From the IMG/VR virus record IMGVR_UViG_3300006794_000002: a stretch of DNA of 64,000 nucleotides. One strand, written 5' to 3'. The translations under genes were made by a program, and so were the position numbers. A model generated the notes under the pieces. That model saw nothing but the letters and a program-made list of their open reading frames with translations, ran no database searches and was not told the DNA's origin. Shown piece by piece: positions 38,609 to 40,707 of the stretch; the first letter of the stretch is position 1, and the number at the start of each line of letters is the position of its first letter. Source of the stretch: a virus. Taxonomy: Duplodnaviria; Heunggongvirae; Uroviricota; Caudoviricetes.

Positions 38609-40141
38609 CTAGAAAGGCCAGTCTTCGTTCTGACCACGCTCGATCAGGTCGATCAACTTGAATCCTGCGTCGGTCAATCCCGCGAAGGTATAGCGGTTGT
38701 CCGTGCCCGTAGGCAACTGACCAACGCTGTAACCAGCGACATTGAACGTGAAGATTGGCTTGTTGATCGTAGCCGCTGGCTTTCGGCCATAGGCATTAGC
38801 CTGTTCATCGGTTAGGATGACGACTCGATCATGGTTAGAGTAGGTGCTGTCCAGCGTCTTGAAGGTTTCGGTTCCACCCATGTCAGCCTTGAACTTGCGA
38901 GCAAGTTCTAGAACTGGCGTGGTCTTGTTGAAATCGACCTTCTGGCTACCAGTACCATAGCGGTACAGATCAGCGCTTTCGGCACGAAGGGCAAGGGCGG
39001 CTCCGAAGAGTCCTGCTTGCTCTGCGAACGTCAATTCGCTGTTCTTTGAGTTATGGCTGGTCATCGAGCCTGAGTTGTCAACCAAGATTAGAGTACGACC
39101 CTTCAGAGAAGGAACGTTCTGCAAGGTTCCGGCAATAGCGTCTTCTAGAGCCGCCTTTGCCTTCAGGTTATCGATGTTCTTGAATGCGCTGTGGAAGCGA
39201 ATAGGGAACTGGCGAGACTTCGCTACTTCCTCTGGATCAGCCAACTTAGTCAAGACCGTAGCCATGACTTCCTTGCTGACACCAGCCTGTTCGAAGTTAC
39301 GAAGGTTGCGTAGGAGCGCCATGTAGCCCATTGAAGGGATAATGGCTTCCCAAGCAGCAGCGTCCATTGGTCCCTGTAGCCATCCGGAGACGCTCTCCCA
39401 AGTCATTCCGGCGCTAGCCAGAGTTTCAGGGTCTAGAGCGGCACGCCTGTCTGAGACAGGAAGGGCCATCAGAGCCTTGTACGCAGCGATCATCTTCAGG
39501 TTCTCTGTAGATGCGTCACGACCGTGGCGAGTGTTCAAGGCGTACTTGAACAGTTCGCTTTGCCAACCAGCCTTAGGAGCAGGGTGAACAATGTCAATGA
39601 CATCGCCAAAGCGATAGCCGCTACCGGCAGAGTCGTACTTCAGAACGCTGCGTTCGTTGTACAGCCTCTTAACGGCGTCTGCGACACCACGCTTGATAGG
39701 CTGAGGAATGTTACGACCGTAACGTGCGCGGTAGTAGCCCAAGACCTCTGCTGGTTCGTCGGCACGAGCGATAGCGGAATCAATGACCTTTCGGCCACCC
39801 TTTCCACCAGCGCGGACGTACTCGACCGCCATGACGACTGAGGCACTTCGCATGTTCATCTCGTTGCGGAGATAAGGAACGAAACGTGCGACCCAATCTG
39901 AGTCCTTTGCAACTACCTTGGCAACAAGGTCGTTGAACCTCTTGTCGCGGGCTTCACTCTTCTCGTAGAAGGTGTCTTCCCCGACCATGTTTGAAACGGC
40001 AAGCAAGAACAATTCGCTCTTTGGCTTGCGGGTATAGCCCTCGCCCATGTTGCCCGTGTAGGCATCACTCGTCTTTGAGCGGGACTTGATCTTAGCAATA
40101 GGCGTATAAGCCTTTGGCGCTAGGTTTGCTAACTTTGGCAT
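38609..40141 (-). CDS. rsr: Ro60/Rsr orthologue (TROVE domain + C-terminal vWA domain)
   Basis: vWA motif LILVDNSGSM (DxSxS-type site that binds a metal ion and mediates adhesion) in the C-terminal third. ~510-aa TROVE-sized N-terminal region. Strong AAGGAGGattgttATG start at 40141. The listed N-terminal extension up to 40213 is a spurious reading of the ncRNA leader. Confidence 0.55.
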   Translation of the reverse strand: MPKLANLAPKAYTPIAKIKSRSKTSDAYTGNMGEGYTRKPKSELFLLAVSNMVGEDTFYEKSEARDKRFNDLVAKVVAKDSDWVARFVPYLRNEMNMRSASVVMAVEYVRAGGKGGRKVIDSAIARADEPAEVLGYYRARYGRNIPQPIKRGVADAVKRLYNERSVLKYDSAGSGYRFGDVIDIVHPAPKAGWQSELFKYALNTRHGRDASTENLKMIAAYKALMALPVSDRRAALDPETLASAGMTWESVSGWLQGPMDAAAWEAIIPSMGYMALLRNLRNFEQAGVSKEVMATVLTKLADPEEVAKSRQFPIRFHSAFKNIDNLKAKAALEDAIAGTLQNVPSLKGRTLILVDNSGSMTSHNSKNSELTFAEQAGLFGAALALRAESADLYRYGTGSQKVDFNKTTPVLELARKFKADMGGTETFKTLDSTYSNHDRVVILTDEQANAYGRKPAATINKPIFTFNVAGYSVGQLPTGTDNRYTFAGLTDAGFKLIDLIERGQNEDWPF

Positions 40142-40707
40142 AACAATCCTCCTTGGGATTTTGACAACGAGAACAAGGCGCAGAAAGCCGTAAACTTGGT
40201 GGATTCGCACCACCTAGGTTTGCTTTGAAGGCAAATTGACAACTAACGTCGAAGTAACTCTCTACTACGCACCGTTATCGTTATGCGTGAATTATTGTGA
40301 CAGCGGGGACAAGTCGGAACAAGTTGAAACCCTCAGGTGAAGAGGGCTGAGGCACCAGCCTCAATTTCCCCATGGTGGGGAAAGTTTGGATCGAACAAAC
40401 GAAGTAACTCGACCCTACGCATCGCTATCGCGCAGCCCTAGCAAGGCTAGGTGAACAGATGTGAACAAGACGAAAAAAGAACGTTTAGCATGTTACCACT
40501 ACACCAAACCGGGATGGTCCCGGTTGACCGATTCGAACGGCCCTCTCTGCTTTCAAGGCAGCGAAGTAACTCTTTTCTACGCATCATCTGAACACCTAGA
40601 CTCGCTAGATGCTACTATGTTATTCCTCCGAGGACAAGATCGAACAAGGCTGTTTTTGGGTTAAAGCACAACCGAAGTAACCCTGCTCTTCGCATCGAAG
40701 TCTTCTA
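40142..40707 (-). ncRNA. Y-RNA-like (YrlA-like) leader: tandem tRNA-like modules and a 4× conserved repeat upstream of rsr
   Basis: Modules:
- 40198–40235: T-arm-like ggtgg-attcgca-ccacc plus tttgc-tttgaag-gcaaa.
- 40365–40400: tttcccca-tgg-tggggaaa plus gtttg-gatcgaa-caaac.
- 40507–40561: aaccggga-tgg-tcccggtt, then gaccg-attcgaa-cggcc, then ctgc-tttcaag-gcag.

Motif CGAAGTAAC…CTACGCATC recurs at 40250, 40400, 40562 and 40673. Confidence 0.4.

What the first reader, a model, noticed from the sequence alone, without database searches (positions are those of the whole stretch)
38609..40707. Ro60/Rsr orthologue with an upstream Y-RNA-like leader carrying tandem tRNA-like modules
The 510-aa minus-strand protein has the Ro60 architecture: a long TROVE-sized N-terminal region plus a C-terminal vWA domain (LILVDNSGSM). 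In bacteria and a few mycobacteriophages, Rsr is encoded next to Y RNAs whose effector module mimics a tRNA.

The ~570 nt upstream of the strong AAGGAGG-ATG start has no credible ORF. It holds at least three minus-strand modules, each made of three parts:
- a canonical T-arm (e.g. ggccg-TTCGAAT-cggtc);
- an adjacent 7-nt-loop hairpin (anticodon-like);
- an 8-bp 'acceptor' helix closed by a CCA-containing loop (aaccggga-CCA-tcccggtt; tttcccca-CCA-tggggaaa).

This is the closed-acceptor tRNA mimic described for YrlA-type Y RNAs. A phage carrying Rsr, multiple Y-RNA modules and a ~34-tRNA array would be an unusually complete RNA-surveillance/tRNA toolkit.
Basis: partly seen in the sequence, partly recalled or inferred. 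Interest (0 to 1): 0.85.

Follow-up and report, generated by a model that had tools for sequence, protein, structure and literature searches.

The report
Phage Ro60 gene with Y RNAs
An uncultured phage carries a Ro60/Rsr RNA-surveillance protein gene preceded by four tandem Y RNA genes, two of them built like circularly permuted tRNAs; this is a well-supported new example of a system already known from bacteria and phages, not a new kind of system.

Summary
The finding is real and its core interpretation holds, but the anatomy needed correcting and the novelty was overstated.

- **Protein.** The minus-strand ORF 38609-40141 is a Ro60/Rsr orthologue. It has a TROVE hit, an invariant MIDAS motif and a Ro60 ring fold.
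- **Leader.** The ~560-nt leader holds four tandem Y RNA modules, not three. Each is closed by the same stem with conserved 5' and 3' boxes. Their inner domains differ:
  - Module 1 is short.
  - Module 2 is a canonical YrlA-type permuted tRNA mimic (V, T, acceptor-like and D arms).
  - Module 3 has T and acceptor-like arms, a mini D hairpin and an anticodon-like hairpin.
  - Module 4 has only V-like and variant T hairpins.
- **Family evidence.** A covariance model built only from homologues finds all four modules (E 2e-19 to 5e-7). It also finds such arrays beside rsr, on the same strand, in 48/48 viral and nearly all (at least 76) of 80 actinobacterial loci, with strong covariation.
- **Rfam.** Rfam YrlA misses the window but weakly hits the homologues.
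- **Acceptor loops.** Both acceptor-like loops read A-CCA-U, the same form as this phage's own tRNA junctions, so RNase P cleavage is predicted.
- **Verdict.** New member of a known kind.

The parts
40707..40736 (-). Promoter-like site TGGACA-18-(TG)TATAGT. It ends about 5 nt upstream of module 1.
   Evidence: Consensus scan, 10/12 matches with an extended -10 TG. The closest relative L048 has TTGACA-17-TGTATAGT at the same position relative to its module 1. Function is inferred, not shown.
40624..40702 (-). Y RNA module 1, short and YrlB-like. It has an outer stem, the 5' box GAUGCGAAG (40688-40696), GGUUACUUCG (40673-40682), a small hairpin (40659-40673) and the 3' box CGAUCUUGUCCUC (40630-40642). 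There is no tRNA-like domain.
   Evidence: R1 model 32.8 bits, E 5.5e-7, matching only the stem and boxes. Fold. The boxes are identical in L048.
40455..40591 (-). Y RNA module 2, canonical YrlA type. Parts: 5' box (40570-40585); V arm CUGC-CUUGAAA-GCAG (40547-40561); T arm GGCCG-UUCGAAU-CGGUC (40526-40542); acceptor-like hairpin AACCGGG-A-CCA-U-CCCGGUU (40507-40525); D arm GUGU-AGUGGUA-ACAU (40490-40504); 3' box CGUCUUGUUCAC (40461-40472).
   Evidence: R1 78.9 bits, E 2e-19, full-length 1-140. The MFE fold agrees. After circular permutation at the CCA loop, ARAGORN calls it an intron-containing tRNA; 0 of 500 shuffles are called.
40438..40608 (-). Extended 24-nt helix formed by the flanks of module 2 (40585-40608 pairs with 40438-40461). 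It is a candidate double-strand-specific processing site.
   Evidence: Inverted repeat I1, 83% complementary, present in the MFE of the whole leader. A processing role is inferred only.
40299..40429 (-). Y RNA module 3, a YrlA variant. Parts: 5' box (40408-40423); T arm GUUUG-UUCGAUC-CAAAC (40384-40400) directly after UUACUUC, with no V arm; acceptor-like hairpin UUUCCCC-A-CCA-U-GGGGAAA (40365-40383); mini D-like hairpin GAGGC-UGGU-GCCUC (40349-40362); anticodon-like hairpin CCCUC-UUCACCU-GAGGG (40330-40346); 3' box CGACUUGUCCCC (40305-40316).
   Evidence: R1 47.0 bits, E 8e-11, aligning the stem, T arm and acceptor stem. Fold z = -4.6. With the Ro-binding stem excised, ARAGORN calls tRNA-Val(cac); 0 of 500 shuffles are called.
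40163..40279 (-). Y RNA module 4. Parts: 5' box GGUGCGUAG... (40258-40273); small hairpin (40238-40250); V-like hairpin UUUGC-CUUCAAA-GCAAA (40219-40235); variant T hairpin GGUGG-UGCGAAU-CCACC (40198-40214); 3' box CGCCUUGUUCUC (40169-40180). There is no acceptor or D arm.
   Evidence: R1 42.7 bits, E 1.2e-9, stem and boxes only. Fold. The UGCRAAU T-loop variant recurs in full homologous modules.
40138..40286 (-). Predicted long-range helix. GCAUAAC (40280-40286) pairs with GUUAUGC, which covers the rsr start codon (40138-40144). The Shine-Dalgarno AAGGAGG (40148-40154) sits in a small hairpin at the foot of module 4.
   Evidence: Inverted repeat I4. The MFE folds of the window and of L048 both contain the helix, with one compensatory G-C to A-U change. 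A regulatory meaning is speculative.
38609..40141 (-). rsr (Ro60 orthologue), 510 aa: a TROVE/HEAT-repeat ring plus a C-terminal vWA domain with MIDAS DNSGS (codons at 39065-39079).
   Evidence: Pfam TROVE 6e-19. PDB profile hits to phiLo Ro60, Rsr 2NVO and Ro60 1YVP. AlphaFold pLDDT 85.6, with Foldseek TM 0.65-0.77 to Ro60/Rsr. Homologues are 74% identical in ENA contig L048 and 51% in Streptomyces phage BRock.
38567..38596 (-). Intrinsic-terminator-like hairpin (13-bp stem) followed by AUUUUUCU, 12 nt after the rsr stop codon.
   Evidence: Terminator scan.

Best explanation
**What it is.** This is a phage-borne rsr/Y RNA cassette of the actinobacterial YrlA type.

**Proposed transcription and processing**
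- One promoter-like site (40736-40707) would drive a single transcript. It carries four tandem Y RNAs, then rsr, and ends at the hairpin terminator (38596-38567).
- The Y RNAs would be cut out of this precursor, as shown for M. smegmatis YrlA and YrlB.

**Proposed Rsr binding**
- Each Y RNA pairs its 5' and 3' ends into a stem interrupted by a conserved internal loop: 5' GRUGCGWAG facing 3' CGNCUUGUYC.
- This loop is the presumptive docking site for the outer surface of the Rsr ring.

**Proposed effector function**
- The variable inner domain is the effector module.
- In modules 2 and 3 it is a circularly permuted tRNA mimic. The acceptor-like helix is 7 bp long and closed by A-CCA-U.
- This is exactly the form of this phage's own tRNA-tRNA junctions.
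- RNase P is therefore predicted to nick the loop, as it does M. smegmatis YrlA. After loss of one nucleotide this would leave a genomically encoded CCA 3' end.
- By analogy with D. radiodurans RYPER and Thermus phage phiLo, the Rsr-Y RNA particles most likely engage host PNPase or other 3'-5' exonucleases. This would redirect or dampen host RNA decay during infection. The different modules would give Rsr different partners.

**Shown versus inferred**
- Shown here: protein identity and fold; RNA family membership by homology and covariation; module anatomy; linkage to rsr.
- Inferred: transcription unit, processing, Rsr binding, RNase P cleavage and the PNPase connection.
For: **Protein**
- TROVE 69 bits and an invariant MIDAS motif.
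- Profile hits to phiLo Ro60 (8e-51), Rsr 2NVO (1e-13) and Ro60 (~1e-11).
- AlphaFold model with TM 0.65-0.77 to Ro60/Rsr structures.

**RNA**
- The 24-nt box occurs four times only in the leader, against 0.01 expected.
- An alignment of 18 homologous modules, without the window, gives 30 pairs, 26 of them with compensatory changes.
- In that alignment 94.4% of cells are paired, against 65% in shuffles and 37-47% with slid partners. The covariation score is 0.79 against 0.23, and 0 of 500 shuffles reach it.
- Model R1, built from that alignment, hits the four window modules at 78.9, 47.0, 42.7 and 32.8 bits.
- R1 gives 141 hits in 48/48 viral rsr loci, all on the rsr strand and nearly all upstream.
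- R1 gives 147 hits in nearly all (at least 76) of 80 Actinomycetota chromosomal rsr loci, all on the rsr strand and within about 700 nt upstream.
- Rfam YrlA RF02553 hits the homologues at E 7e-7 to 4e-3.

**tRNA mimicry**
- ARAGORN calls modules 2 and 3 as tRNAs after un-permutation, and 0 of 500 shuffles.
- All 33 phage tRNAs end in encoded CCA, with junctions of the form NCCA-N-next tRNA.
- NCCA at the start of the acceptor loop is enriched: 11 of 76 distinct viral-locus modules against 1.8 expected.

**Literature**
- YrlA anatomy, the polycistronic YrlA/YrlB precursor, and RNase P cleavage plus CCA addition for the 7-bp acceptor stem of M. smegmatis YrlA (PMC4201824; bioRxiv 10.1101/312249).
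- Phage phiLo Ro60 binds two upstream Y RNA-like RNAs and host PNPase and attenuates PNPase activity (PMC12135203).
Against: - There is no expression, processing or binding data for this phage.
- Rfam YrlA does not detect any window module even at E <= 10 in a 171-nt search. Its hits on homologues are all below the gathering score (32-45 against 69 bits).
- The literal published 5' motif GNCGAAN0-1G is not matched. Module 1 has UGCGAAG and modules 2-4 have UGCGUAG.
- The promoter and terminator are consensus matches only.
- The host is unknown, so its PNPase and RNase P cannot be examined.
- The link between CCA-encoding tRNAs and CCA acceptor loops is not general. L048 encodes CCA in 19/19 tRNAs, but its YrlA-like acceptor loop lacks CCA. 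L031 and L032 show the reverse.
- The ARAGORN test is lenient: 44 of 96 homologous modules are also called tRNA once the Ro stem is removed.
Confidence: 0.85

Rival explanations
1. The leader is mainly a cis-acting 5' UTR that autoregulates rsr, rather than a source of trans-acting Y RNAs. Rsr would bind its four sites on its own mRNA. Module 4 in particular abuts the ribosome-binding site, so binding there would repress or time rsr translation.
For: - Module 4 ends 8 nt before the Shine-Dalgarno sequence.
- The 5' flank of module 4 pairs with the start codon, and the SD sits in a small hairpin.
- This fold is conserved in L048 with one compensatory change.
- All modules share one promoter-like site with rsr.
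Against: - In BRock a terminator-like hairpin separates the Y RNA array from rsr, so coupling is not general.
- In some loci the modules lie downstream of rsr (L023, L031, L032).
- Characterised YrlA and YrlB are released from the precursor and accumulate bound to Rsr (PMC4201824).
- Four elaborate and different effector domains are not needed for simple autoregulation.
- The two readings are not mutually exclusive.
Confidence: 0.1
2. The tRNA-like modules work mainly with tRNA enzymes or the translation apparatus, not with PNPase. After RNase P nicking they would be CCA-ended split tRNA mimics held on Rsr. They would act as decoys or sensors for host tRNA-targeting nucleases, CCA-adding enzyme, synthetases or EF-Tu, and so protect or monitor the phage's 33 tRNAs.
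For: - Both acceptor helices are 7 bp with A73-CCA-U(-1), identical in form to the phage's own tRNA junctions.
- Module 3 has a full cloverleaf including an anticodon-like arm.
- rsr/Y RNA cassettes sit inside or next to large tRNA arrays in many phages.
- M. smegmatis YrlA is nicked by RNase P and receives CCA (PMC4201824).
- Streptomyces phage JustBecause has an RNA ligase gene directly upstream of its Ro gene.
Against: - The module 3 anticodon loop has C at position 37 and a 5-bp/4-nt D-like hairpin, both atypical for a decoding tRNA.
- No aminoacylation of any Y RNA has been reported.
- The only phage system tested points to PNPase (PMC12135203).
- Most bacterial homologues close the acceptor stem with stable tetraloops such as UUCG. 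A free CCA end is therefore not a general requirement.
Confidence: 0.15
3. The leader is decayed tRNA-array material (tRNA pseudogenes and junction remnants) with no Ro-related function. Its position next to rsr would be a by-product of rsr having inserted into a tRNA cluster.
For: - The R1 model gives partial hits at true tRNA-tRNA junctions in the window (31285-31364, 26.7 bits). The permuted T/acceptor/D topology therefore equals a junction between tandem tRNAs.
- In BRock and LuckySocke rsr lies inside the tRNA array.
Against: - All four modules carry the non-tRNA closing stem and boxes, including modules 1 and 4, which lack most tRNA parts.
- The stems covary.
- The same modules flank rsr in Actinomycetota chromosomes.
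- In the window the tRNA array lies ~5.7 kb away from the leader, separated by five other genes: rsr, RNR, a zinc-ribbon ORF, ThyX and TK.
Confidence: 0.03

Closest known systems
YrlA / YrlB Y RNAs of Actinobacteria and mycobacteriophages (Chen et al. 2014, PMC4201824; Rfam RF02553)
   Same: - The RNAs are encoded just upstream of rsr on the same strand and are probably polycistronic.
- The closing stem carries a conserved 5' box with a CGAA-like core.
- YUAY (UUAC) follows the stem.
- The order V arm, T arm, acceptor-like hairpin, D arm makes a circularly permuted tRNA mimic.
- A shorter partner RNA lacks the tRNA-like domain, like YrlB.
- The acceptor stem is 7 bp, as in M. smegmatis YrlA, which RNase P cleaves.
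   Different: - There are four modules here, against the two characterised in M. smegmatis.
- The 5' box is UGCG(A/U)AG rather than the literal GNCGAAN0-1G.
- The Rfam model does not detect the window.
- CCA is fully encoded in both acceptor loops (A-CCA-U). In M. smegmatis the CA is added after cleavage.
- Module 3 lacks a V arm and adds an anticodon-like hairpin.
Thermus phage phiLo phiRo60 with Yrl1/Yrl2 (Hu et al. 2025, PMC12135203; PDB 9KOP, 9L5Y)
   Same: - A phage-encoded Ro60 has several Y RNA-like genes directly upstream.
- phiRo60 is the best solved-structure match of the window protein (E 2e-27 for the single sequence, 8e-51 for the profile; TM 0.65-0.73).
- It provides the only experimental phage precedent: binding of the Yrls and host PNPase, and attenuation of PNPase.
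   Different: - Identity is only ~25%, and the host phylum differs.
- The phiLo Yrls are described as stem-bulge-stem RNAs with a CGAA motif; the parts of the paper I read do not mention a tRNA-like domain.
- The window RNAs belong to the actinobacterial YrlA branch.
rsr loci of Streptomyces phages BRock and LuckySocke and Gordonia phage Rabbitrun (GenBank KX925554, OR725497, NC_060133)
   Same: - The Rsr proteins are 42-51% identical to the window protein.
- Four to five tandem modules with the same boxes lie upstream of rsr.
- Large tRNA arrays are nearby.
- The low-GC form of the 5' box (CGAUGCG) is shared with BRock and LuckySocke.
   Different: - The Y RNAs are not annotated in these records. 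One is annotated as tRNA-Ser(gct) and others lie under small hypothetical CDSs.
- Their acceptor loops read ACUC.., not ACCA, and their tRNAs mostly lack encoded CCA.
- BRock has a terminator-like hairpin between the array and rsr.
- There is no nucleotide-level similarity to the window.
D. radiodurans Rsr / Yrn1 / PNPase (RYPER)
   Same: A Ro60 ring plus a Y RNA whose stem binds Ro and whose distal tRNA-like module engages an effector. Several Y RNAs are encoded upstream of rsr.
   Different: Yrn1 keeps both strands of the metazoan-type Ro-binding helix. Its T and D elements are in the opposite orientation, around an anticodon-like rather than an acceptor-like hairpin.

Membership tests
Ro60 / Rsr (TROVE + vWA ring proteins) | TROVE domain detected above the curated threshold | tested here: met
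   PF05731 at 69 bits against a cut-off of 23, E 6e-19. All 120 listed homologues carry PF05731.
Ro60 / Rsr (TROVE + vWA ring proteins) | C-terminal vWA domain with a MIDAS DxSxS motif | tested here: met
   DNSGS at residues 355-359, with D355, S357 and S359 invariant in 22 sequences. The Pfam vWA_Ro60 hit is weak (15.9 bits against 27.7). The model's C-terminal domain nevertheless matches integrin I and vWA domains.
Ro60 / Rsr (TROVE + vWA ring proteins) | Full-length sequence and fold similarity to solved Ro60/Rsr rings | tested here: met
   Profile against PDB: 9KOP/9L5Y 8e-51, 2NVO 1e-13, 1YVP/9NEN ~1e-11. AlphaFold pLDDT 85.6, pTM 0.82. Foldseek TM 0.65-0.77 over ~500 columns.
Ro60 / Rsr (TROVE + vWA ring proteins) | Binds Y RNA and misfolded RNA | not testable with these tools
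   Needs biochemistry.
YrlA-type bacterial Y RNA (Chen 2014; Rfam RF02553) | Encoded within a few kb of rsr on the same strand | tested here: met
   The four modules lie 22-561 nt upstream of the rsr ATG on the minus strand. The same linkage holds in 48/48 viral loci and in nearly all (at least 76) of 80 bacterial loci.
YrlA-type bacterial Y RNA (Chen 2014; Rfam RF02553) | 5' and 3' ends pair into a long stem | tested here: met
   The outer and inner stems form in all four modules. In homologues they covary: 6 of 6 and 6 of 8 pairs show double changes.
YrlA-type bacterial Y RNA (Chen 2014; Rfam RF02553) | The stem carries the conserved 5' motif GNCGAAN0-1G (CGAA core) | tested here: inconclusive
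   The literal motif is not matched. Module 1 has UGCGAAG, which contains the CGAA core. Modules 2-4 have UGCGUAG. Homologues show UGCG-N-AG.
YrlA-type bacterial Y RNA (Chen 2014; Rfam RF02553) | Conserved YUAY after the stem, at the start of the V region | tested here: met
   UUAC, within GUUACUUCG, is present in all four modules.
YrlA-type bacterial Y RNA (Chen 2014; Rfam RF02553) | tRNA-like T arm, acceptor-like stem-loop and D arm in the order T-AS-D | tested here: met
   Module 2 has all three (alignment). Module 3 has T and AS plus a mini D-like hairpin. Modules 1 and 4 do not qualify and are YrlB-like partners.
YrlA-type bacterial Y RNA (Chen 2014; Rfam RF02553) | Reaches the Rfam RF02553 gathering score | tested here: not met
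   There is no RF02553 hit in the window at E <= 10. Homologous modules score 32-45 bits against a gathering score of 69. The curated model appears too narrow for this branch. Membership rests on the homologue-derived model R1 and on anatomy.
YrlA-type bacterial Y RNA (Chen 2014; Rfam RF02553) | Expressed, and bound and stabilised by Rsr | not testable with these tools
   There is no transcriptome for this uncultured phage.
Canonical tRNA | Detected as a tRNA gene in its genomic order | tested here: not met
   ARAGORN finds no tRNA at 40142-40710. Rfam tRNA gives only 16.3 bits, a partial match. The modules are recognised only after circular permutation or excision of the Ro stem.

The most novel reading that the evidence does not exclude
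Modules 2 and 3 may not be closed-acceptor mimics. They may be precursors that RNase P nicks at A-CCA^U. That would yield Rsr-tethered, two-piece tRNA look-alikes with a ready-made CCA end.

Module 3 would be a complete cloverleaf with an anticodon-like CAC loop, the Ro-binding stem emerging from the variable-loop position.

Such particles could be aminoacylated. Alternatively they could act as decoys or sensors for host tRNA-directed defences, linking Ro60 surveillance to the phage's tRNA arsenal.

A corollary is that YrlA tRNA-like domains arose from junctions between tandem tRNA genes.
Probability: 0.12. Interest if true: 0.7.

Novelty: new member of a known kind. Interest (0 to 1): 0.35.

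Why it matters
- **Reach of the system.** The rsr/YrlA cassette extends to an uncultured phage lineage. Its terminase is only 27% identical to that of any isolated phage.
- **Annotation gap.** Tandem arrays of one to about eight Y RNA modules are the rule beside rsr in actinophages and Actinomycetota, yet they are missing or mis-annotated in GenBank records. The curated Rfam model misses the window and reaches its gathering score on none of the homologues tested. The homologue-derived model could fix this.
- **A testable question.** The A-CCA-U acceptor loops copy the phage's own tRNA junctions. This gives a clean way to ask whether some Y RNAs mature into CCA-ended split tRNA mimics.
- **Experimental systems.** Cultured relatives (BRock and LuckySocke on Streptomyces) are available for the wider question of what a phage gains from Ro60.

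Tried and rejected
- **Rfam scans of the window.** Scans of 3.5 kb, of 171 nt and of the whole window found no Y RNA family. A control on homologues showed that Rfam does hold YrlA but scores this branch below threshold.
- **Megablast to INPHARED phages.** No match. Relatives had to be reached through the protein.
- **Regex delimitation of 3' boxes.** My first pattern failed for the GAUCUC class. I replaced it with the covariance model. A second 3'-box pattern was mis-specified and uninformative.
- **'Phage tRNAs with encoded CCA predict CCA acceptor loops'.** Rejected as a general rule. L048 (19/19 CCA tRNAs) lacks a CCA loop, and L031/L032 have ACCA loops but tRNAs without CCA.
- **ARAGORN un-permutation as a specific test for module 3's completeness.** The test is lenient: 44 of 96 homologous modules are also called. 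The claim therefore rests on the two discrete hairpins in the fold.
- **Translated leader or longer rsr.** The GTG-40213 extension (534 aa) and the 46-67-aa ORFs were rejected. The ATG at 40141 has a strong SD, homologues align from residues 1-36, and the region evolves as paired RNA.
- **Literature.** The supplements of Chen 2014 and two Wolin reviews are not held. I therefore could not compare directly with the published M. smegmatis or ET08 sequences.

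
Full report
**1. The observation**

The minus-strand ORF 38609-40141 (510 aa) starts at an ATG seven bases downstream of AAGGAGG (40148-40154). A 13-bp hairpin terminator follows it at 38596-38567. 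The ~560 nt upstream has only short, overlapping ORFs on both strands. As RNA it folds far better than shuffles (z = -6.1). ARAGORN finds 33 tRNA genes at 30313-34453 on the same strand and none in the leader.

**2. The protein**

- Pfam TROVE scores 69 bits (cut-off 23). The vWA hits are weak.
- The single sequence matches the Thermus phage phiLo Ro60 structure over residues 32-504 (E 2e-27).
- A profile of 22 homologues also reaches D. radiodurans Rsr 2NVO (1e-13) and vertebrate Ro60 1YVP/9NEN (~1e-11).
- The MIDAS residues D355, S357 and S359 are invariant.
- An AlphaFold model (pLDDT 85.6, pTM 0.82) superposes on Ro60, Rsr and phiRo60 over its whole length with TM 0.65-0.77. Its C-terminal domain matches integrin I and vWA domains.
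- The nearest relatives are metagenomic: 74% identity on a syntenic 69.7-kb ENA contig, L048. Streptomyces and Gordonia phages follow at 42-51%, and Actinomycetota chromosomes at ~50-54%.

The protein is a Ro60/Rsr orthologue.

**3. The leader is four modules, not three**

A direct-repeat search and an alignment show four units. Each opens with GRUGCGWAG-N6-GUUACUUCG and closes with CG-N-C-UUGUYC. The 24-nt opening box occurs exactly four times in the 64 kb, all in the leader. The chance expectation is 0.01 even with two mismatches allowed. The four units fold to one plan:

- an outer stem made by the 5' and 3' ends;
- an internal loop holding the two conserved boxes;
- an inner stem;
- a variable multi-branch interior.

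The interiors differ:

| Module | Coordinates | Interior |
|---|---|---|
| 1 | 40624-40702 | One small hairpin only |
| 2 | 40455-40591 | V hairpin, canonical T arm, acceptor-like hairpin, D arm (GUGU/ACAU with loop AGUGGUA) |
| 3 | 40299-40429 | T arm directly after UUACUUC, acceptor-like hairpin, 5-bp hairpin with a UGGU loop, 5-bp hairpin with a 7-nt loop UUCACCU |
| 4 | 40163-40279 | Small hairpin, V-like hairpin, T-like hairpin with loop UGCGAAU; no acceptor or D arm |

The '7-nt-loop anticodon-like hairpin' of modules 2 and 4 is in fact the variable arm of the YrlA scheme.

**4. Evidence from relatives**

The same boxes lie upstream of rsr in these records, none of which annotates them as RNAs:

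- Streptomyces phage BRock, 4 modules;
- Streptomyces phage LuckySocke, 5 modules;
- Gordonia phage Rabbitrun, 4 modules;
- L048, 4 modules;
- most IMG/VR loci fetched through the protein.

I aligned 18 full-size modules from other loci, leaving the window out. RNAalifold predicts five helices: outer stem, inner stem, T, acceptor-like and D. They comprise 30 pairs, 26 of them with compensatory changes.

On that alignment 94.4% of cells pair, against 65% after shuffling partners and 37-47% with partners slid by 1-3 columns. The covariation score is 0.79 against 0.23, and no shuffle of 500 reaches any observed measure.

A covariance model from this alignment (R1) finds the four window modules and nothing comparable elsewhere in the window:

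| Module | Bits | E-value | Extent of match |
|---|---|---|---|
| 2 | 78.9 | 2e-19 | Full length |
| 3 | 47.0 | 8e-11 | Stem, T arm and acceptor stem |
| 4 | 42.7 | 1e-9 | Stem and boxes |
| 1 | 32.8 | 5e-7 | Stem and boxes |

R1 gives 141 hits in all 48 viral or phage loci, every one on the rsr strand, in arrays of one to about eight. It gives 147 hits in nearly all (at least 76) of 80 Actinomycetota chromosomal rsr loci, all on the rsr strand within ~700 nt upstream. The phage cassette thus mirrors the actinobacterial chromosomal arrangement.

**5. Relation to the known family**

Chen et al. 2014 (PMC4201824) defined YrlA RNAs by these features:

- location near rsr;
- a 5' GNCGAAN0-1G motif;
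- YUAY opening a V region;
- the order T arm, acceptor-like stem-loop, D arm.

Their examples included Streptosporangium, Gordonia, M. smegmatis and a mycobacteriophage, and they listed 22 phages. The crystal structure paper (bioRxiv 10.1101/312249) describes YrlAs as resembling circularly permuted tRNAs with closed acceptor stems.

Module 2 fits this anatomy point by point. UUAC is present in all four modules. The 5' box, however, is UGCG(A/U)AG, so only the CGAA core, and only in module 1, matches the literal motif.

Rfam does hold YrlA (RF02553). It hits the homologous modules in 10 of 10 loci tested, at 32-45 bits (E 7e-7 to 4e-3). That is below its gathering score of 69, and some of these hits are full length. 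It does not hit the window even when only 171 nt are searched.

Membership therefore rests on the homologue-derived model, on covariation and on anatomy, not on the curated threshold. I record that test as not met. Modules 1 and 4 correspond to the shorter partner RNAs (YrlB-like). M. smegmatis YrlB likewise has only a possible T arm.

**6. The tRNA mimicry and the CCA loops**

- Permuting module 2 at its CCA loop makes ARAGORN call an intron-containing tRNA whose 'intron' is the Ro-binding stem.
- Excising the Ro stem from module 3 gives a call of tRNA-Val(cac).
- None of 500 shuffles of either construct is called.
- The test is lenient, since 44 of 96 homologous modules are also called. Module 3 is nevertheless the only one of these with two discrete hairpins after the acceptor strand. 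Its Ro stem therefore emerges from the variable-loop position rather than replacing the anticodon stem.

In tRNA register both acceptor helices are 7 bp followed by A73-CCA and a single U before position +1. All 33 tRNA genes of this phage encode CCA, and several adjacent tRNAs are separated by a single base. The acceptor loops thus copy the phage's own tRNA-tRNA junctions. R1 correspondingly gives partial hits at real junctions, for example 31285-31364 at 26.7 bits.

Encoded NCCA at the start of the acceptor loop is a recurrent minority feature:

- 11 of 76 distinct modules from viral loci, against 1.8 expected, with 0 of 2000 shuffles reaching 11;
- 6 of 97 bacterial modules, against 1.9 expected.

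Most bacterial loops are instead tetraloops such as UUCG. M. smegmatis YrlA has a 7-bp acceptor stem, is cleaved by RNase P and then receives CCA (PMC4201824). I therefore predict RNase P nicking of modules 2 and 3. This is inference. The correlation with CCA-encoding tRNAs does not hold across loci.

**7. Expression signals and processing (inferred)**

- A promoter-like TGGACA-18-TATAGT with an upstream TG ends about 5 nt before module 1. L048 has TTGACA-17-TGTATAGT at the same place.
- Between the window and L048 the boxes, the last 60 nt and the ribosome-binding site are nearly identical. The module interiors have diverged or been swapped. This fits the modular view of Y RNAs.
- The flanks of module 2 form a 24-nt helix, a plausible endonuclease site.
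- The 5' flank of module 4 pairs with the rsr start codon, and the SD lies in a small hairpin. L048 keeps this fold with one compensatory change.

These features hint that rsr translation is coupled to Y RNA folding or processing. The evidence is thin.

**8. Mechanism**

The best-supported model is a single operon. It would produce Rsr and four Y RNAs that dock on the Rsr ring through the conserved box region and present different effector domains.

Two precedents suggest the RNPs act on host 3'-5' RNA decay during infection:

- RYPER in D. radiodurans;
- phage phiLo, where phiRo60 and two upstream Y RNA-like RNAs bind host PNPase and attenuate its activity (PMC12135203).

The alternatives cannot be excluded and are scored separately. 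These are cis-autoregulation and a role centred on tRNA enzymes or tRNA-directed host defences.

**9. Context and novelty**

The window is phage DNA. It encodes a terminase large subunit and very large ORFs (1,274 and 2,001 aa; not examined) upstream. Downstream of rsr come RNR, ThyX, thymidine kinase and then the tRNA array. Its terminase is at most 27.5% identical to that of any isolated phage, and there is no nucleotide match.

The combination of Rsr, Y RNAs and many tRNAs is recurrent, not exceptional. I classify the finding as a new member of a known kind. Three modest variant features stand out:

- the encoded A-CCA-U loops;
- the complete-cloverleaf module 3;
- a sequence too divergent for the Rfam model.

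Noticed in passing
window 30313-34453 (for example the junction at 31285-31364): All 33 phage tRNA genes encode their 3' CCA, and several neighbours are separated by a single base. The Y RNA covariance model gives partial hits across such tRNA-tRNA junctions: T arm, acceptor 3' strand, NCCA-N, acceptor 5' strand, D arm. The permuted YrlA tRNA-like domain therefore has the topology of a junction between tandem tRNA genes. This suggests an origin.
   Followed up: partly
window 40138-40286: GCAUAAC upstream of module 4 pairs with GUUAUGC over the rsr start codon. The Shine-Dalgarno sequence sits in a small hairpin. The closest relative, L048, keeps the fold with one compensatory change (ATGCC to ATGTC paired with G to A).
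   Followed up: partly
window 40438-40461 with 40585-40608: A 24-nt, 83% complementary helix is formed by the sequences flanking module 2. It is long enough to be a double-strand-specific RNase site for releasing that Y RNA.
   Followed up: no
L002 (Streptomyces phage LuckySocke, OR725497) 2715-2860; L003 (Gordonia phage Rabbitrun) 2386-2789: The GenBank 'tRNA-Ser(gct)' gene 36 of LuckySocke lies inside a Y RNA module (R1 104 bits). Rabbitrun's small hypothetical CDSs gp93 and gp94 overlap Y RNA modules. None of the phage records examined annotates Y RNAs.
   Followed up: partly
L001 (Streptomyces phage BRock) 5067-5230: There is a sub-threshold Rfam manA RNA match (49.7 bits against a gathering score of 55.2) between two tRNA-Lys genes. 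It lies partly under an annotated 'collagen triple helix repeat' CDS.
   Followed up: no
L004 (Streptomyces phage JustBecause) 2208-4644: An RNA ligase gene sits immediately upstream of the Ro-like gene, with Y RNA model hits further upstream (1806-2126). This is reminiscent of the bacterial rsr-rtcB RNA repair linkage.
   Followed up: no
window 30313-34453: Only 25 of the 33 ARAGORN tRNAs were reported by the Rfam gathering-threshold scan of the whole window. The array also contains gaps of 130-250 nt without a called gene (for example 30816-31034, 31672-31869, 34045-34295).
   Followed up: no
window 42025-42854: This is an ~830-nt stretch between the minus-strand gene block that contains rsr and a plus-strand block starting with a DUF7178 gene. 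It has only short ORFs (the longest 82 aa) and is likely a divergent control region.
   Followed up: no
L037 1600-2823; L022/L042 1520-2378: Some IMG/VR contigs carry arrays of six to about eight tandem Y RNA modules upstream of rsr. This is more than the four in the window.
   Followed up: no
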